From IMG/VR virus record IMGVR_UViG_2547132269_000002, positions 1-11,368 of that record: a DNA stretch of 11,368 nt; one strand, written 5' to 3'. Shown one piece after another: positions 1-6,930 of this stretch. Below the pieces are notes generated by a model, which did not search any database, was not told the origin of the DNA, and worked only from the letters and a program-made list of their open reading frames with translations. A program made the translations under genes and the position numbers. Every line of letters starts with the position of its first letter. Within the stretch, counting starts at the first letter, position 1. The stretch is from a virus. Taxonomy: Duplodnaviria; Heunggongvirae; Uroviricota; Caudoviricetes.

Positions 1-265
1 GCGATAATTTTACTCATCATCCTTCACATCAGGCCCTGTAGACAGAGTGGTGATTACTTCTGGAGTGGATTCAGATTAAACATCTCATTGCTAATGTTTG
101 AGGTTAAGCATCTGGCGCGCGGTAAGCGGTTGCGTTGAAATAAGAGCCAGTCCATTACAAATTTCATCAAGCGTTATTGGTAAGGGTGATAATTATGAGA
201 TACCTCTTCACTAAGAGTAATCTTAAGGGTAATGTGTAACCTCACTTTTTAATACGGAGGTTGTA

Positions 266-490
266 ATGTTAGAGAATTATTTCCCTTCAGGAATAGGTGC
301 TCAGCCTGTAACTCAAGCTCAAAAACAGAGGGTTATAGCTGTTCAAGCTGCCCTTGAATTAGTTAAGGCCTCACTTTCTTCTGCAGGTGGTCAGGCTACA
401 AGTGCAAAATTTGAACAGGAATTAAAAGCAGCTATTGGCTTAATTGAACCATTAGCCGATGCCATTCAGAAAGCAATCAGCAAAGAATAA
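266..490 (+). CDS. Small hypothetical protein (74 aa), AT-rich moron-like gene, predicted mostly helical, no signal peptide or TM segment
   Basis: ATG at 266 preceded by GGAGG at 256-260 (5-nt spacer); TAA stop at 488-490. Composition clearly more AT-rich than downstream phage genes. Followed ~105 nt downstream by an intrinsic terminator. Function not recognised. Confidence 0.6.
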   Translation: MLENYFPSGIGAQPVTQAQKQRVIAVQAALELVKASLSSAGGQATSAKFEQELKAAIGLIEPLADAIQKAISKE

Positions 491-595
491 ATAAACCACC
501 TGCATTTTGTTTTATTTCCCAACTAACGGGTGTAATAATCTTAATGTTTCCCGTGGATAGATAAGACAATAAGTATTCACCTTCAAGATATAAAC

Positions 596-622
596 GGGCC
601 TCGCTAATGCGAGGCTTTTTTA
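596..622 (+). terminator. Rho-independent terminator (stem gcctcgc / gcgaggc, loop taat, then TTTTTT)
   Basis: Perfect 7-bp inverted repeat at 598-604 and 609-615, immediately followed by a 6-T run at 616-621. Orientation fits termination of + strand transcription from the small gene at 266..490. Confidence 0.6.
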
Positions 623-656
623 CGCATTGTAAGCGTGCACCAAAGAGGGGATATAA

Positions 657-1007
657 ATGCCACCACGAACCCCAAAAGCCTGCCGTTTTCGCGGTTGCCG
701 CAATACCACTACAGATACGTCAGGCTATTGCGAAAGCCACAAAAGCGAGGGCTGGAAGCAATACAAGCCAGGACAATCCCGTCATCAGCGCGGTTATGGT
801 TCGAAGTGGGACAGTATCCGCGCGGGTGTCCTGAAGCGTGACAAAGGCCTGTGTCAGTTATGTCTGCGTGCTGGTGTGGTGCGTGAGGCGAAAACCGTTG
901 ACCACATCATCCCTAAAGCGCATGGCGGCACTGATGCCGACTGTAATCTGCAGAGTCTGTGCTGGCCGTGTCATAAGGCGAAGACGGCCCGTGAACGACT
1001 TAAGTGA
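657..1007 (+). CDS. HNH homing-type endonuclease, phage packaging-associated (116 aa)
   Basis: ATG at 657 with AGAGGGG upstream. Cys pairs CRFRGC and CQLC...CWPC (zinc-finger-like). HNH core DHIIPKAHGG...NLQSLCWPCHKAKT with His83 codon at 903-905. Sits directly upstream of the small and large terminase genes, as in HK97-like cos phages. Confidence 0.9.
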   Translation: MPPRTPKACRFRGCRNTTTDTSGYCESHKSEGWKQYKPGQSRHQRGYGSKWDSIRAGVLKRDKGLCQLCLRAGVVREAKTVDHIIPKAHGGTDADCNLQSLCWPCHKAKTARERLK

Positions 1008-1033
1008 TAATAATTCTCAACTGTCTGAGGGGA

Positions 1034-1093
1034 GGGGCGGGTCAAATCTCTGTGACCTGACGTCTTCCGGACTGCCCGCCCCATCGTTTTTTT
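1034..1093 (+). other. GC-rich inverted repeat (ggggcggg ... cccgcccc) with internal palindromes, followed by TTTTTTT; candidate terminator or cos/packaging-recognition region
   Basis: Arms at 1034-1041 and 1075-1082 are exact reverse complements separated by a 33-nt loop containing the palindromes gacgtc (1059-1064) and tccgga (1066-1071). A 7-T run at 1087-1093 lies 4 nt after the stem. Located in the HNH to TerS intergenic gap. Confidence 0.35.
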
Positions 1094-3551: not shown

Positions 3552-4909
3552 TGTTCTTTTCGGGATTATTTCAACGAAAAAGTGACGCACCGGTGACCAC
3601 GCCAGCAGAGCTGGCGGATGCTATCGGGTTGTCCTACGACACCTATACCGGAAAGCAGATCAGCAGCCAGCGGGCCATGCGACTGACGGCGGTTTTTTCC
3701 TGTGTCAGGGTGCTGGCGGAGTCGGTCGGGATGTTGCCCTGCAACCTGTATCACCTGAACGGCAGCCTGAAGCAGAGAGCCACTGGCGAACGTCTGCATA
3801 AGCTGATCTCCACGCATCCCAATGGCTATATGACGCCGCAGGAGTTCTGGGAGCTGGTGGTCACCTGTCTGTGCCTGCGGGGAAACTTTTACGCCTACAT
3901 TGAGCTGAAACGTCCGGCAGGTGGTGCGCAAAATAAACTGGCCACCGAGCATAAAGAAGCGTTTGTGGGCTTCCTGCGTAAAGGCCGTGAAGATGGTCTG
4001 CGCGATCTGGAGCGCAAGGCATTACAGGTGGGCACCGATGAAGACGGTGGCTATGCCGTGCCGGAAGCGCTGGATCGCAACATTCTGACCTTGCTGAAAG
4101 ATGAAGTGGTGATGCGCCAGGAAGCCGCGGTGATCACCGTTGGCGGTTCCGACTACAAAAAACTGGTGAATCTGGGCGGCACGGCTTCCGGATGGGGTGG
4201 CGAGACTGACGCGCGCTCCCAGACTGCCACCTCCAGACTGGGGCTGATTGAACCTTTCATGGGGGAAATCTACGGTAACCCGCAGGCCACCCAGAAAATG
4301 CTGGATGATGCCTTTTTCAACGTGGAGGCCTGGATCAACAGCGAGCTGGCAACCGAATTTGCCGAACAGGAAGAAATTGCCTTTACCACCGGCGATGGTA
4401 CCAAGAAGCCGAAAGGGTTCCTGGCGTATGAATCCACTGATGAAACCGATAAGGTCCGGGCGTTCGGCAAACTTCAGCATATTGTATCCGGCGACGCGAC
4501 TGCGGTGACCGCAGACGCCATTATCAAACTGATTTACACGCTGCGAAAGGCACACCGCACCGGCGCGAAGTTCATGATGAACAACAACAGCCTGTTTGCC
4601 ATCCGTTTGCTGAAAGACAGCGAGGGTAACTATCTGTGGCGTCCGGGGCTGGAACTGGGGCAGCCGTCCTCTCTGGCGGGTTACGGTATCGCTGAAAACG
4701 AACAGATGCCGGATATCGCCGCTGATGCGAAAGCCATTGCATTTGGTAACTTCAAACGGGGTTACACCATCGTTGACCGTATCGGCACCCGCATTCTGCG
4801 TGACCCGTACACCAATAAACCGTTTGTCGGTTTTTATACAACCAAGCGCACCGGCGGGATGCTGGTCGATTCGCAGGCCATCAAACTGCTGAAGATTGCT
4901 GCGGCGTAA
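3551..4909 (+). CDS. Chimeric ORF: portal protein N-terminal fragment (~125 aa) fused in frame to an HK97-fold major capsid protein (~325 aa); probable deletion product
   Basis: GTG start at 3551 with GGAGG at 3540-3544. Residues ~40-120 carry the portal N-terminal signature (AMRLTAVFSCVRVLAESVGMLP ... HPNGYMTPQEFWEL ... LRGNFYAYIE). From about nt 3910-3950 the sequence switches to capsid-type motifs (EAFVGFLRKG, GGYAVPE, TGDGTKKPKGFL, LRDPYTNKPFVGFYTTKRTGG, AIKLLKIAAA). No prohead protease or scaffold gene between them. Confidence 0.8.
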   Translation: MFFSGLFQRKSDAPVTTPAELADAIGLSYDTYTGKQISSQRAMRLTAVFSCVRVLAESVGMLPCNLYHLNGSLKQRATGERLHKLISTHPNGYMTPQEFWELVVTCLCLRGNFYAYIELKRPAGGAQNKLATEHKEAFVGFLRKGREDGLRDLERKALQVGTDEDGGYAVPEALDRNILTLLKDEVVMRQEAAVITVGGSDYKKLVNLGGTASGWGGETDARSQTATSRLGLIEPFMGEIYGNPQATQKMLDDAFFNVEAWINSELATEFAEQEEIAFTTGDGTKKPKGFLAYESTDETDKVRAFGKLQHIVSGDATAVTADAIIKLIYTLRKAHRTGAKFMMNNNSLFAIRLLKDSEGNYLWRPGLELGQPSSLAGYGIAENEQMPDIAADAKAIAFGNFKRGYTIVDRIGTRILRDPYTNKPFVGFYTTKRTGGMLVDSQAIKLLKIAAA

Positions 4910-4958: not shown

Positions 4959-5159
4959 ATGATCCTGAAACAAGATCTGAAATGGTCACCGGACGGTATG
5001 CGTGTTGAGGTCATTCGGGCCGGTGAGTATGACGACGGGGCGCTTCCTGCCCGGGTGCAGGAGATTGCACTTCAGGCCGGGTTAGCAGAGCGCGGAACCA
5101 GTGCAAAAAGCAGTAAAGCGGCAAAAGAGAAAAAAGCCACGACCAGTAAAGAGGGCTGA
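4959..5159 (+). CDS. Hypothetical small protein (66 aa) with Lys/Ser-rich C-terminal tail
   Basis: ATG at 4959, weak RBS. Sits between the capsid and head-tail connector genes. C-terminus SAKSSKAAKEKKATTSKEG. Stop 2 nt before the next gene start. No family recognised. Confidence 0.5.
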   Translation: MILKQDLKWSPDGMRVEVIRAGEYDDGALPARVQEIALQAGLAERGTSAKSSKAAKEKKATTSKEG

Positions 5160-5161
5160 GT

Positions 5162-5485
5162 ATGCTTCTGACAATGGAAGAGATTAAAGCCCAACTCCGG
5201 CTGGATGAGGATTTCGATGCTGATGACCGCCATCTGCAACTGCTGGCCTGTGCGGCGCAAAAGCGGACGGAAACGTATCTGAACCGGAAGCTCTATGCAC
5301 CGGATGAATCCATTCCGGACAGCGATCCGGACGGGCTGCACCTGCCGGATGATATTCGTCTGGGGATGCTGATGCTTATCAGCCATTTTTACGAAAACCG
5401 CTCGTCGGTTACGGAAGTGGAAAAACTCGACATGCCGCAGAGTTTTGGCTGGCTTGTCGGCCCGTACAGGTACTTTCCGCAATGA
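5162..5485 (+). CDS. Head-tail connector protein, gp6-like (107 aa)
   Basis: ATG at 5162 with AAGAGGG upstream. N-terminal pattern LTMEEIKAQLRLDEDFDADD...LQLLACAA resembles gp6-like connector/DNA-packaging proteins. Follows the capsid gene. ATGA overlap with the next gene. Confidence 0.75.
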   Translation: MLLTMEEIKAQLRLDEDFDADDRHLQLLACAAQKRTETYLNRKLYAPDESIPDSDPDGLHLPDDIRLGMLMLISHFYENRSSVTEVEKLDMPQSFGWLVGPYRYFPQ

Positions 5486-5892
5486 AAATTCGTCAGGCGC
5501 AGATCAGCGCAACCTACATTCTGCCGGACCCCGGTGAACTGAATAAACGCGTCCTGATCCGCCTGCGGGTGGATATGCCCGCGGATAACTTTGGCGTGGA
5601 GCCTCAATACCCGGTTACGTTCTGGACATGGGCGAAGGTTATCCAGACCAGTGCCACCACCTGGCAGGAAACCGCGCAGACCGGGGACGCCATCACCCAT
5701 TACATCACCATTCGTTACCGCCGGGGGATCACCGCTGATTATGAGGTGGTCTGTGATGACAGTGTGTACCGGGTGAAACGTCAGCGCGATCTGAACGGGG
5801 CGCGGCGCTTTCTGCTGCTGGAGTGTACGGAGCTGGGCGAATTTACGCAGAGTCACGGAGGCAGCAATGGCGACTCCCTTTTTTCACGTTGA
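5482..5892 (+). CDS. Head-tail joining (head closure / adaptor) protein (136 aa)
   Basis: Pattern RVLIRLRV ... FWTWAKVIQ ... AQTGDAITHYITIRYRRGI ... YRV ... LLECTE fits the phage head-tail joining family. Position after the gp6-like gene. Confidence 0.75.
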   Translation: MKIRQAQISATYILPDPGELNKRVLIRLRVDMPADNFGVEPQYPVTFWTWAKVIQTSATTWQETAQTGDAITHYITIRYRRGITADYEVVCDDSVYRVKRQRDLNGARRFLLLECTELGEFTQSHGGSNGDSLFSR

Positions 5893-6373
5893 TGTTCAGC
5901 AGCCCGCGGAGATGCGCTTTAACCGCGCCCGTGTCCGGCGGGCGTTTGTCACGATTGGTCAGCGTCATATGCGTGATGCCCGTCGGCTGGTGATGCGCCG
6001 TGCGCGGTCGGCACCGGGTGAAAACCCCGGTTATCAGACCGGACGCTTGGCTCGTTCGATTGGTTACATGGTGCCGGGAGCCAGTAAAAAGCGAGTCGGT
6101 TTTATGACACGCATTGCCCCTAACCAGCGCAACGGGAGGGGGAACCGGATGATCTCTGGTGACTTCTATCCGGCGTTTCTGTTTTTTGGTGTCCGGGGAG
6201 GAGCAAAACGTCGTCACAGTCATCATCGTGGTGCATCCGGTGGCAGCGGCTGGCGACTGGCTCCACGTAATAACTTCATGGTGGAAACGCTTGAAAAGAA
6301 CCGCAGCTGGACACGCTATTTTCTGGCGCGGGAATTACGTAAATCACTGAAGCCGGAGCGACGACGCAGATGA
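5867..6373 (+). CDS. Neck / tail-completion protein, HK97 gp10-like by pattern (168 aa), Arg-rich C-terminus
   Basis: ATG at 5867 with GGAGG at 5857-5861; overlaps the previous gene by 26 nt. Assignment rests on gene order and loose motif resemblance (GYQTGRLARSI, FYPAFLFFG). Confidence 0.5.
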   Translation: MATPFFHVDVQQPAEMRFNRARVRRAFVTIGQRHMRDARRLVMRRARSAPGENPGYQTGRLARSIGYMVPGASKKRVGFMTRIAPNQRNGRGNRMISGDFYPAFLFFGVRGGAKRRHSHHRGASGGSGWRLAPRNNFMVETLEKNRSWTRYFLARELRKSLKPERRRR

Positions 6374-6930
6374 AACTGACGCCTGTTATTGCTGCGCTGC
6401 GTGCCCGCTGCCCGTATTTTGAAAACCGGGTGGCAGGTGCGGCACAGTTCAAAAATCTGCCGGAGGTCGGAAAGCTGAAACTCCCGGCGGCGTATGTGGT
6501 ACCGGGTGATGACTCTCCTGGAGAAAACAAAAGCCAGACCGACTACTGGCAGGAGCTGAAAGAGGGCTTCTCCGTGGTTGTCATACTGAGTAACGGGCGT
6601 GATGAGCGCGGTCAGTTTGCCTCGTATGATGTGGTGGACGATGTCCGGCAGATGCTCTTTAAGGCCCTGCTGAGCTGGAACCCGGAAGCGTGCGGTAACC
6701 CGATTACCTATGACGGCGGCACGCTGCTGGATCTGAATCGTCATGAGCTGATTTATCAGTTCGATTTTTCGGTCATCAGCGAGCTGACCGAAGACGATAC
6801 CCGCCAGCAGGATGATCTGAACAGTCTGGATGAACTGCAAACGCTGGCGATTGATGTTGATTATCTCGAGCCCGGTAACGGGCCTGACGGCGATATCGAA
6901 CATCACACCGAAATAACCCTTCCTTCCTGA
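6370..6930 (+). CDS. Mu gp36/gp37-like tail-associated protein (186 aa) with acidic C-terminal region
   Basis: ATGA overlap with the upstream gene. Lies just upstream of the gp38-like gene and the tail sheath start, as in Mu-like tail modules. Family assignment is by position and loose resemblance. Confidence 0.5.
   Translation: MKLTPVIAALRARCPYFENRVAGAAQFKNLPEVGKLKLPAAYVVPGDDSPGENKSQTDYWQELKEGFSVVVILSNGRDERGQFASYDVVDDVRQMLFKALLSWNPEACGNPITYDGGTLLDLNRHELIYQFDFSVISELTEDDTRQQDDLNSLDELQTLAIDVDYLEPGNGPDGDIEHHTEITLPS

What the first reader, a model, noticed from the sequence alone, without database searches (positions are those of the whole stretch)
1..656. AT-rich moron cassette upstream of the packaging genes
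The left ~650 bp is visibly more AT-rich than the structural genes; my rough by-eye count of sampled lines gives ~35-45% GC here against clearly >55% in the genes to the right. It contains a 74-aa gene (266..490) with a strong GGAGG RBS and its own intrinsic terminator at 596-622. Stand-alone gene, terminator and foreign composition inside a late operon is the classic moron arrangement, and such slots often hold host-interaction, defence or anti-defence genes. I do not recognise this protein's family (helical, Ala/Gln/Lys-rich, no signal peptide), so it is the most likely place in the window for an uncharacterised function.
Basis: partly seen in the sequence, partly recalled or inferred. Interest (0 to 1): 0.55.

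Follow-up and report, generated by a model that had tools for sequence, protein, structure and literature searches.

The report
Small unknown-function cargo gene after lysis genes
The AT-rich left end of the window is a real, self-contained accessory ("moron") gene cassette sitting between the lysis and DNA-packaging genes of an E. coli prophage; it encodes a conserved 74-residue two-helix protein of unknown function, so it is an ordinary kind of feature carrying an uncharacterised protein.

Summary
GC is 39.8% in 1-656 against 56.5% to the right. The 74-aa ORF (266-490) has a GGAGG ribosome-binding site and is under purifying selection (pN/pS 0.19-0.28). There is a strong intrinsic terminator at 596-622.

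The window is an SfV-like E. coli prophage and starts 2 nt after the Rz spanin stop. Bases 1-162 are the conserved tail of the lysis module. The cargo is about 163-650 and occurs in 38 of 5,426 complete E. coli genomes. Prophages with the same flanks have the slot empty (SfV), hold only a terminator, or hold a different gene (SKA5). That is the moron arrangement.

No consensus sigma-70 promoter is present. There is only a weak -35/-10 pair (207-212, 230-235) whose key bases are conserved in seven divergent homologous loci.

The protein belongs to PHROG 5901, a stand-alone Enterobacterales family. It has about 137 clusters at 50% identity, a confident helical-hairpin model (pLDDT 88), and no match in Pfam, NCBIfam, PADLOC, PDB or fold libraries. 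Phage copies sit just downstream of lysis cassettes. Many other copies are chromosomal orphans with housekeeping neighbours.

Function remains inferred. A covarying RNA hairpin that brackets cargo genes in this slot in related phages was noticed; the window keeps only a decayed remnant.

The parts
1..162 (+). Conserved tail of the lysis module, immediately downstream of the Rz/spanin stop. It is not part of the cargo. PGAP annotates a 50-aa ORF here (window -14..138) that is probably not coding.
   Evidence: The window starts 2 nt after the Rz stop in a 99.6% identical genome. The block is ~91% identical to the stretch after Rz in HK620, CUS-3 and others. pN/pS of the annotated 50-aa ORF is 0.59-0.82.
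154..193 (+). Decayed remnant of the junction hairpin (CCATTACAAAT ... GTGATAAT). It marks the left boundary of the cargo. Intact copies in relatives form a 15-bp interrupted hairpin.
   Evidence: Sequence motif match. The window copy does not fold (delta G -5.5, z +0.23), whereas intact copies reach -23 to -24 kcal/mol with z about -6. The covariance model finds no hit here. Homology with HK620, WP4 and FDAARGOS_1287 ends at ~162.
163..650 (+). Cargo (moron) cassette. It comprises the upstream region, the 74-aa gene, a decayed proximal terminator, a spacer and the distal terminator.
   Evidence: Present at >=98.4% identity in 38 of 5,426 E. coli genomes, always complete. It is replaced by other sequence between the same flanks in L013, L014, SfV, SfIV and SKA5. 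GC is 0.387.
207..235 (+). Candidate weak sigma-70-type promoter: -35 TTCACT (207-212), 17-nt spacer, -10 TAATGT (230-235). Inferred only.
   Evidence: It was not reported by the consensus scan and matches only 7 of the 12 consensus positions (read). In an alignment of seven divergent loci (E. coli, Pantoea, Erwinia, Citrobacter, Dickeya, two metagenomic), the TT of the -35 and the T-A...T of the -10 are invariant at constant spacing.
256..260 (+). Shine-Dalgarno sequence GGAGG, 5 nt before the ATG.
   Evidence: Read directly from the sequence. AAGGAG or GGAGG at the same distance is conserved across about 90 homologous loci.
266..490 (+). Gene for a 74-aa protein (identical to WP_000892817.1), a member of PHROG 5901. 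Predicted fold: extended N-terminal segment (MLENYF motif) plus a two-helix hairpin (helices 17-39 and 46-72).
   Evidence: ORF and translation. PHROG 5901 at E = 8e-29 over the full length. pN/pS 0.19-0.28 against three homologues. AlphaFold2 pLDDT 87.7 and pTM 0.72 with a 119-sequence alignment. 137 clusters at 50% identity.
495..517 (+). Decayed proximal terminator (ACCACCTGCATTTTGTTTTATTT). Homologues carry an intact terminator at this position.
   Evidence: The alignment with L098 (GCCGCCTTCGGGCGG + T7) and L095 (GCCTCGCAATAGCGGGGC + T6) places their terminators here. The window stretch does not fold (delta G -2.9, z 0.1).
596..622 (+). Intrinsic (rho-independent) terminator that closes the cassette.
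   Evidence: Delta G -17.4 kcal/mol, z -3.8, 0 of 200 shuffles as stable. Flagged by the pattern scan. Followed by six T.
657..1007 (+). HNH endonuclease gene. It is the first gene of the packaging module and the right boundary of the slot.
   Evidence: Pfam HNH at E = 5e-15 and PHROG 144. It is 91-93% identical to the HNH genes of SfV, SfIV, SfII and SKA5, with homology starting at ~651-657.

Best explanation
Bases ~163-650 are an autonomous accessory-gene cassette (a moron). It sits in the permissive junction between the lysis module (holin, endolysin, Rz) and the packaging module (HNH endonuclease, cos, TerS, TerL) of an SfV-like E. coli prophage.

Shown:
- It is a monocistronic unit: Shine-Dalgarno sequence, a 74-codon gene under purifying selection, and a terminator.
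- Its composition is foreign to both flanks.
- It is present in only a small lineage of otherwise similar prophages.
- Its product belongs to a well-conserved Enterobacterales family of stand-alone 60-80-aa helical-hairpin proteins. Family members occur both in phages, almost always just after the lysis cassette, and as chromosomal orphan genes.

Inferred:
- During lytic growth the gene is transcribed as part of the Q-antiterminated late transcript. No terminator separates it from Rz, and Q-modified polymerase would read through 596-622 into the packaging genes.
- In the lysogen it would be transcribed at a low level from the weak conserved promoter at 207-235 and stopped by the terminator.
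- The protein has no catalytic or membrane features. It most likely acts stoichiometrically in the cytoplasm, by binding another protein or by self-assembling into a helical bundle.
- Orphan copies are kept in chromosomes far from any phage genes, so its benefit is more likely to the cell or lysogen than to virion production.

My confidence is about 0.8 for the cassette architecture and about 0.35 for this mode of action.
For: Architecture: composition; ORF, ribosome-binding site and terminator; position right after Rz in the late operon.

Variable slot content between identical flanks; cassette in 38 of 5,426 genomes against flanks in 2,446.

Real gene: pN/pS 0.19-0.28; 137 family clusters, all of similar length; full-length PHROG 5901 match.

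Independent transcription unit: a terminator follows the gene in 54 of 87 distinct loci, and promoter-critical bases are conserved.

Slot preference in phages: in Serratia phage OS31, Pantoea, Klebsiella, Dickeya, Pectobacterium and metagenomic prophages the gene lies downstream of the spanin, whatever the terminase type. Of 121 distinct nearest upstream proteins in viral contigs, 26 are endolysins and 23 are spanins.

Chromosomal orphans: neighbours in 80 species-representative genomes are mostly oxidoreductases, aldehyde dehydrogenases, GFA, GGDEF, GNAT and similar proteins.

Fold: confident two-helix hairpin with no transmembrane segment or signal peptide.
Against: No consensus sigma-70 promoter is found in the window or in a homologous locus. 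The candidate matches only 7 of 12 consensus positions, so expression in the lysogen is unproven and the gene might be purely late.

The E. coli copy always has the same neighbours, so mobility of this particular cassette is inferred from comparison, not observed.

Nothing indicates a binding partner. All family, structure and fold searches were uninformative.

Some 'chromosomal' copies lie next to prophage-type genes (DUF1398/YbcV-like, cold-shock genes) or a tRNA-like gene. These may be prophage remnants rather than true host genes.
Confidence: 0.6

Rival explanations
1. Late lytic accessory protein tied to lysis, for example a cytoplasmic regulator of the holin or spanin comparable in logic to T4 RIII. 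It would be expressed only from the Q-dependent late transcript, and the AT-richness would simply reflect horizontal exchange of lysis-module variants.
For: Across divergent phages with different endolysin types (GH24, GH19, GH108), spanin types and terminase types, the gene sits directly downstream of the spanin on the same strand. In Dickeya it follows Rz with no packaging genes nearby. There is no terminator between Rz and the gene in the window and no consensus promoter.
Against: The gene is absent from close relatives that lyse normally, such as SfV and SfIV. Many family members are chromosomal orphans with no lysis genes within several kb. The gene usually has its own terminator. It has no transmembrane segment or lipobox, and no similarity to any lysis family in Pfam or PHROGs.
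Confidence: 0.15
2. Anti-defence protein: a small helical inhibitor or nucleotide sponge that protects the phage from a host immune system. It would be carried in a slot that collects such genes.
For: In the Klebsiella locus, and in two viral contigs, the neighbouring gene in the same slot is an Acb2/Tad1-hairpin family protein. The Dickeya locus also carries an anti-Pycsar Apyc1-type gene, about 5.5 kb upstream of the family gene. The protein is small, helical, rare and of patchy distribution within E. coli.
Against: Profile comparison with the adjacent Acb2-like protein gives probability 0.1%. Nothing is found in Pfam, PDB or BFVD. Orphan copies are conserved at chromosomal sites across Serratia species and other genera, which is unusual for an anti-defence gene. 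PADLOC holds defence rather than anti-defence models, so its silence is neutral.
Confidence: 0.15
3. The AT-rich stretch is mainly a non-coding regulatory or processing region of the late transcript (junction hairpin, terminators, sequences near cos), and the ORF is incidental.
For: Related loci carry a strongly covarying RNA hairpin and terminators at this junction even when no gene lies between them, as in WP4. cos lies only ~575 nt downstream of the gene.
Against: The ORF is under purifying selection (pN/pS 0.19-0.28). It has 137 protein-level relatives of the same length and a confident fold. The hairpin is decayed in the window.
Confidence: 0.03

Closest known systems
Lambdoid morons at the lysis-packaging junction, e.g. 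bor of lambda / borD of DLP12, and the HK620 hkbK-hkbN region
   Same: Same slot, downstream of Rz and upstream of the terminase. borD, ybcV and ybcW occupy it in DLP12, and hkbK, L, M and N occupy it in HK620. The window shares the conserved 162-nt post-Rz block with HK620. These are also stand-alone units with their own terminators, a composition different from the neighbours, and variable presence among relatives.
   Different: There is no sequence relationship to Bor, YbcV, YbcW or the Hkb proteins. From general knowledge, Bor is a lipoprotein transcribed in the opposite direction with a known serum-resistance phenotype. The protein here is cytoplasmic, co-oriented with the late operon, and has no known phenotype.
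PHROG 5901 (phage protein family of unknown function)
   Same: Full-length match, E = 8e-29, residues 1-74 on profile positions 1-70 of 70.
   Different: The PHROG has no annotation. This work adds that the family extends to about 137 clusters at 50% identity, is restricted to Enterobacterales, and includes many chromosomal orphan copies.
Acb2/Tad1 hairpin sponges (anti-CBASS / anti-Thoeris)
   Same: Small helical-hairpin phage proteins. An Acb2_Tad1_hairpin gene lies next to the family gene in the same slot in Klebsiella and in two viral contigs.
   Different: No detectable homology: hhalign probability 0.1% and no Pfam hit among 119 members. Oligomeric state and ligand binding were not tested.
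T4 RIII (small cytoplasmic helical antiholin cofactor)
   Same: This is an analogy from general knowledge only. Both are ~80-aa cytoplasmic helical proteins, and this one is associated with lysis genes by position.
   Different: No sequence or fold match was found in PDB or BFVD. The family also occurs without any lysis genes nearby.
Inter-cistronic RNase III hairpins of T7, and attC sites of integron cassettes (comparators for the junction hairpin only)
   Same: The junction hairpin is an interrupted hairpin of about 15-19 bp placed between successive small genes. All copies are in the sense orientation, and several copies bracket successive cargo genes.
   Different: The conserved outer stem CAUUA/UAAUG does not match the attC R''/R' consensus as I recall it. 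No cleavage or recombination was tested. It is not an Rfam family. The window has only a decayed copy.

Membership tests
Moron (as I recall the definition by Hendrix, Juhala and colleagues for HK97/HK022) | Extra gene present in one phage and absent at the same position from otherwise closely related phages | tested here: met
   In SfV the slot is 26 nt long. SKA5 holds a different gene. WP4 and FDAARGOS_1287 have the same flanks with other content. The cassette is in 38 of 5,426 E. coli genomes against flanks in 2,446.
Moron (as I recall the definition by Hendrix, Juhala and colleagues for HK97/HK022) | Own transcription terminator downstream | tested here: met
   596-622: delta G -17.4, z -3.8. 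A terminator follows the gene in 54 of 87 distinct homologous loci.
Moron (as I recall the definition by Hendrix, Juhala and colleagues for HK97/HK022) | Own promoter upstream | tested here: inconclusive
   No consensus sigma-70 match in 1-1200 or in a homologous locus. A weak TTCACT-17-TAATGT pair at 207-235 has its critical bases invariant in 7 divergent loci.
Moron (as I recall the definition by Hendrix, Juhala and colleagues for HK97/HK022) | Nucleotide composition different from the surrounding phage genes | tested here: met
   GC is 0.387 in 163-655, against 0.46-0.52 in the lysis genes and 0.565 in the packaging and structural genes. GC3 is 0.227 against 0.55-0.66.
Moron (as I recall the definition by Hendrix, Juhala and colleagues for HK97/HK022) | Expressed from the repressed prophage | not testable with these tools
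   This needs RNA-seq, 5'-RACE or a reporter fusion in the lysogen.
PHROG 5901 | Full-length match to the family profile | tested here: met
   E = 8.1e-29, 100.6 bits, residues 1-74 on profile 1-70/70.
Acb2/Tad1 hairpin anti-defence sponges (Pfam PF24729) | Sequence or profile similarity to the hairpin domain | tested here: not met
   No Pfam hit for the window protein or for any of 119 relatives. hhalign against the neighbouring Acb2-like protein of Klebsiella gives probability 0.1%.
Phage lysis proteins (holin, antiholin, spanin) | Transmembrane segment, signal or lipobox, or a match to a lysis family profile | tested here: not met
   No Pfam or PHROG lysis family matches. The model is a soluble amphipathic two-helix hairpin. 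The sequence has no hydrophobic stretch and no lipobox.
Known anti-phage defence systems (PADLOC-DB 2.0) | Match to any defence protein model | tested here: not met
   0 families at E <= 1 for the window protein and eight diverse relatives.

The most novel reading that the evidence does not exclude
Two linked possibilities are not excluded. First, the 74-aa hairpin protein may be the founding member of a new class of small host- or defence-modulating proteins shared between Enterobacterales chromosomes and temperate phages. Second, the cargo genes of the lysis-packaging junction may be organised as cassettes punctuated by a conserved, covarying sense-strand RNA hairpin (CAUUA...UAAUG). That hairpin could act as a processing site (RNase III type) or as a cassette-exchange site. 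The window would then be one decayed instance of a general cassette system in lambdoid late operons.
Probability: 0.15. Interest if true: 0.65.

Novelty: new member of a known kind. Interest (0 to 1): 0.35.

Why it matters
Morons are how temperate phages carry lysogenic-conversion, defence and anti-defence genes. The junction between lysis and packaging genes is one of the classic places where they accumulate.

This cassette carries a well-conserved family that is entirely unannotated in public records ('hypothetical protein' throughout). The exact window protein is seen on at least 1,000 contigs. The family has a confident, simple fold and an unusual double life as phage cargo and chromosomal orphan. 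That makes it a cheap and well-defined target for a knockout, overexpression or pull-down experiment.

The hairpin that brackets cargo genes in related phages, if functional, would say something general about how this variable region is expressed or reshuffled.

None of this overturns current understanding. The finding is a correct recognition of an ordinary architecture with unknown content.

Tried and rejected
- Rfam on 1-1200 at permissive E-values gave only sub-threshold chance hits: Leu leader at 25 bits against a gathering score of 50, driven by the terminator. Rfam on ten related loci found no family for the junction hairpin.
- Pfam, NCBIfam and PADLOC on the protein and on 119 relatives gave nothing above noise. 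SesA matched 13 members, with a best E-value of 0.006.
- PDB profile searches gave best hits MyoD bHLH (E = 0.46) and apolipoprotein A-IV (E = 0.21). I rejected both as generic helix-loop-helix or amphipathic-helix resemblance.
- Acb2 relationship: rejected.
- YbcW of DLP12 occupies the analogous position next to a DUF1398 gene, so I tested whether it is a family member. It is unrelated.
- I first took the conserved flanks ATTACA and GATAAT around the hairpin for a -35/-10 pair. I rejected this because the spacing is 22-23 nt and folding shows the two flanks pair with each other as an outer stem.
- The PGAP-annotated 50-aa ORF overlapping the Rz end has pN/pS 0.6-0.8 and is probably not a gene.
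- Two literature searches found nothing on this family or hairpin.
- The search for related loci with the 119-sequence alignment failed for lack of a conserved stretch. The 12-sequence alignment was used instead.
Full report
WHAT THE WINDOW IS

The window is the late region of an SfV-like E. coli prophage. Its first 1,010 bases are 99.4-99.6% identical to 38 complete E. coli genomes. In one of them the annotated order is antiterminator Q, a minus-strand hypothetical gene, holin, GH24 lysozyme, Rz 'lysis protein', and then the window. Window position 1 lies 2 nt after the Rz stop.

To the right come the following genes:
- an HNH endonuclease (657-1007);
- a P27-family small terminase (1133-1627);
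- the large terminase, portal, HK97-type protease and capsid, and a sheathed tail.

The right ends of the linear SfV and SfIV genome records align with the window up to position 1065. The cohesive end therefore lies between the HNH gene and TerS. The finding concerns the last few hundred bases of the late operon before the packaging module.

CHECK OF THE OBSERVATION

All elements are real.

Composition:
- GC is 0.398 in 1-656 and 0.565 in the remainder. The 200-nt profile stays at 0.355-0.435 up to position 700 and at 0.50-0.645 afterwards.
- The lysis genes on the other side are at 0.46-0.52, so this is a trough relative to both flanks.
- Third-position GC of the ORF is 0.227, against 0.55-0.66 in the four genes that follow.

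Gene and signals:
- The ORF 266-490 (74 aa) is preceded by GGAGG at 256-260.
- The hairpin at 596-617 followed by six T has delta G -17.4 kcal/mol and z -3.8. None of 200 shuffles folds as well.
- No minus-strand ORF of 40 aa or more lies in the region.
- A consensus scan finds no sigma-70 promoter, against 1.9 expected by chance.

BOUNDARIES OF THE CARGO

Bases 1-162 are not cargo. They are ~91% identical to the stretch that follows Rz in HK620, CUS-3 and many other P22-like and lambdoid phages. Homology with the HNH genes of SfV, SfIV, SfII and SKA5 starts at ~651-657.

Segment 163-655 searched alone is found in only 38 of 5,426 genomes, always complete and at least 98.4% identical. The two flanks match in 2,446 genomes.

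With the two flanks joined as a query, I recovered prophages in which the same flanks enclose other content:
- about 200 nt with only a terminator and a hairpin (strain WP4-S18-ESBL-09 and four others);
- about 390 nt of other sequence (FDAARGOS_1287).

In SfV the slot is 26 nt long. In SfIV it is ~290 nt without an annotated gene. In SKA5 it holds an unrelated 106-aa gene with its own terminator. The slot is therefore variable, and the window carries one rare filling of it.

THE GENE IS REAL AND BELONGS TO A SIZEABLE UNANNOTATED FAMILY

- The protein matches PHROG 5901 (function unknown) over its full length, E = 8e-29.
- A word-indexed search found 14 clusters. A profile search of 1.84 billion representatives found 137 clusters at 50% identity, nearly all 60-80 aa and matching end to end.
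- Conserved features are the N-terminus MLE-x-Y(F/Y), a first helix (K/Q)RLLAVQAALEI-x-KAS, a variable Ser/Ala/Gly/Thr-rich connector, and a second helix ending LADAIQ-x-AL.
- pN/pS against three homologues is 0.19-0.28.
- With the 119-sequence alignment, AlphaFold2 gives pLDDT 87.7 and pTM 0.72. The model has an extended N-terminal segment and two antiparallel helices, 17-39 and 46-72.
- Every public record reviewed calls the protein 'hypothetical'. The exact window sequence is seen on at least 1,000 contigs.

WHAT IT IS NOT

- No Pfam, NCBIfam or PADLOC family matches the protein or its relatives above noise.
- PDB sequence-profile searches give only chance-level hits: MyoD bHLH at E = 0.46 and apolipoprotein A-IV at E = 0.21.
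- The neighbouring Acb2/Tad1-hairpin protein in a Klebsiella prophage is not detectably related: hhalign probability 0.1%.
- YbcW, which occupies the analogous position in DLP12, is unrelated.

WHERE THE FAMILY LIVES

In phages the position is strikingly constant. The gene lies downstream of the spanin on the same strand in Serratia phage OS31, in prophages of Pantoea, Klebsiella, Dickeya and Pectobacterium, and in metagenomic prophages. This holds whether the packaging module is HNH plus P27-type TerS, Terminase_2 plus Terminase_6, or DUF2280-type. In Dickeya no packaging genes follow at all.

Among 80 IMG/VR contigs, I took the nearest upstream proteins of at least 90 aa. Of 121 distinct proteins, 26 are endolysins (Phage_lysozyme, GH19, GH108) and 23 are spanins (Phage_lysis, DUF2514, DUF2570, LysC).

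The family is not confined to phages. In 80 species-representative Enterobacterales genomes (Serratia, Kluyvera, Scandinavium, Mangrovibacter, Citrobacter, Raoultella and others) the neighbours are mostly housekeeping or accessory chromosomal genes. These include GFO/IDH/MocA oxidoreductases, aldehyde dehydrogenases, GFA, GGDEF, GNAT, pentapeptide proteins, carbonic anhydrase and the type VI secretion protein TssM. Only 4 have a spanin upstream and 3 a terminase downstream. Within Serratia, the gene, its upstream region and its neighbours are conserved across species.

Some of these loci may be prophage remnants, since they lie next to DUF1398/YbcV-like genes, cold-shock genes or a tRNA-like gene.

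IS IT AN INDEPENDENT TRANSCRIPTION UNIT?

Terminator: a strict search finds an intrinsic terminator downstream of the gene, mostly within about 50 nt, in 54 of 87 distinct loci. In the window, the position where relatives L098 and L095 have that terminator is occupied by a decayed remnant at 495-517. The functional-looking terminator is 106 nt downstream of the stop.

Promoter: neither the window nor a homologous locus has a consensus promoter. However, an alignment of the 100 nt upstream of the gene from seven divergent loci shows a pattern typical of a weak promoter. The pair is TTCACT or TTTATT, then 17 nt, then TAATGT, TATTGT, TAAGGT or TATTCT. The TT of the first hexamer and the T, A and final T of the second are invariant. 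In the window these are 207-212 and 230-235. This is an inference, not a demonstration.

No terminator separates Rz from the gene, and the operon is Q-dependent. The gene must therefore also be part of the late transcript. By the established behaviour of Q-modified polymerase (general knowledge), that transcript would read through 596-622 into the packaging genes.

MOST LIKELY WORKING

I conclude, with confidence about 0.8, that 163-650 is a moron-type cargo cassette. For the product I commit to the following, with confidence about 0.35: it is a small soluble cytoplasmic protein that acts stoichiometrically, by binding a partner or self-assembling into a helical bundle, and it benefits the cell or lysogen rather than virion production. 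The reasons are the simple non-enzymatic fold, the absence of membrane or secretion signals, its dispensability in sister phages, and the retention of orphan copies in chromosomes.

The rivals are a lysis-linked late function (0.15) and an anti-defence function (0.15). The first is favoured by the positional constancy after the spanin and the lack of a clear promoter. The second is favoured by the company the gene keeps: an Acb2-type gene lies next to it in Klebsiella and in two viral contigs, and an Apyc1-type gene lies in the Dickeya locus, about 5.5 kb upstream.

A FEATURE NOTICED ON THE WAY: THE JUNCTION HAIRPIN

Upstream of the family gene in most phage loci lies a ~45-nt element. It also occurs in HK620, WP4 and FDAARGOS_1287, which lack the gene.

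Its structure is an almost invariant outer stem CAUUA/UAAUG, a 2x2 internal loop, a 10-bp inner stem and a 3-6-nt loop. Delta G is -23 to -24 kcal/mol and z is about -6.

In 13 hand-picked copies, 8 of 15 pairs show compensatory changes. A covariance model then found 46 copies (E <= 0.01) among the 77 sequences searched:
- The copies lie in 37 of the 63 viral-contig loci searched.
- All copies are on the sense strand of the late operon.
- None is in the seven chromosomal orphan loci, in SfV, SKA5, SfIV or DLP12, or in the window.

On the 46 copies, 95.4% of cells are paired against 78.5% in shuffles and ~40% when partners are slid. Eleven of 15 pairs have double changes. One caveat is that the alignment was fitted to the model. 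A U-G pair conserved in 39 of 44 sequences, and frequent G-U pairs elsewhere, indicate an RNA-level (sense-strand) structure.

Position of the copies:
- Copies begin within a few nt of the stop codon of the preceding small ORF.
- In roughly 30 loci a copy ends about 50-125 nt before the family gene.
- Several loci have two or three copies bracketing successive small cargo genes. An example is L148, with copies at 4883, 5444 and 6187 around genes at 5001-5198, 5472-5933 and 6257-6475.
- In HK620 and WP4 the left half, CATTACAAA, is duplicated on either side of inserted cargo.

The element is not in Rfam, and two literature searches found nothing on it. It could be an RNase III-type processing site or a cassette-boundary element. 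Neither idea was tested. The window retains only a decayed remnant at 154-193 (delta G -5.5, z +0.2), which marks the left edge of the cargo.

VERDICT

Three corrections apply: the cargo is 163-650, the promoter is only inferred, and the family is shared with chromosomes. The architecture is a known kind and the protein family is uncharacterised. Interest is moderate to low (0.35). The hairpin and the family's dual distribution are the only elements that could raise it.

Noticed in passing
L095:5900-5945, L014:1650-1695, L002:4088-4136 (HK620), L148:4883-4930 / 5444-5493 / 6187-6240; remnant at window 154-193: A conserved, covarying ~45-nt sense-strand hairpin lies between small cargo genes of the lysis-packaging junction in many Enterobacterales (pro)phages. 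It has outer stem CAUUA/UAAUG, a 2x2 internal loop and a 10-bp variable inner stem. There are 46 copies in 37 of the 63 viral-contig loci searched, all in one orientation, often 2-3 per locus bracketing cassettes. It is absent from Rfam and decayed in the window.
   Followed up: partly
L063:5874-5950, L064:5829-5905, L082:5846-5923, L085:5839-5917, L088:5841-5918: A tRNA-like gene lies 50-130 nt upstream of the family gene in Scandinavium, 'Enterobacteriaceae bacterium' and similar loci. ARAGORN calls it Thr, Ile, Lys, Gln or undetermined, because the copies differ only in the length and content of a T-run in the anticodon loop. The rest of the sequence is nearly identical. It may be a degenerate or unusual tRNA.
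   Followed up: partly
window 995-1065 (cos region 1008-1132): The right ends of the linear SfV and SfIV genome records align with the window and stop at position 1065. That point lies inside a long GC-rich inverted repeat (GGGGCGGG ... CCCGCCCC) followed by a T-run, between the HNH gene and TerS. This is presumably the cos cleavage region.
   Followed up: partly
window 1-138 (PGAP ORF from -14 to 138): RefSeq annotates a 50-aa hypothetical protein overlapping the end of Rz. Comparison with three homologous copies gives pN/pS 0.59-0.82, so it is probably not a protein-coding gene. The 162-nt block is nevertheless ~91% conserved across many phages, for unknown reasons.
   Followed up: partly
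L001:6450-7500 (outside the window, between Q and the holin): A second AT-rich island (GC 0.35-0.40) in the same prophage holds a minus-strand 248-aa hypothetical gene. It is another moron-like insertion in the late operon leader.
   Followed up: no
L006:5648-5884 and L006:4093-4263; L051:3868-3964: In the Klebsiella prophage the gene just upstream of the family member is an Acb2/Tad1-hairpin (anti-CBASS/Thoeris) homologue. The same locus has an STnc100 sRNA match upstream of the holin, and a Citrobacter locus has an isrI match.
   Followed up: no
upstream regions of L051, L055, L003, L006, L032, L034, L060, L072 (about -45 to -10 from the ATG): A second class of upstream regions shares a motif CCCCA-N2-4-TAyAyT. 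It is followed by a short hairpin immediately before the Shine-Dalgarno sequence, whose stem sequences differ between loci while pairing is kept. This suggests a structured 5' leader. The spacing to a possible TTGAA(T/A) -35 element is ~20 nt, too long for sigma-70.
   Followed up: no
window 266-273 and the start codons of about 90 homologous loci: The first codons are conserved at the nucleotide level (ATGTTAGA...). The rare Leu codon TTA is kept in nearly all hosts, whatever their GC content. This hints at a constraint on the mRNA as well as on the protein.
   Followed up: no
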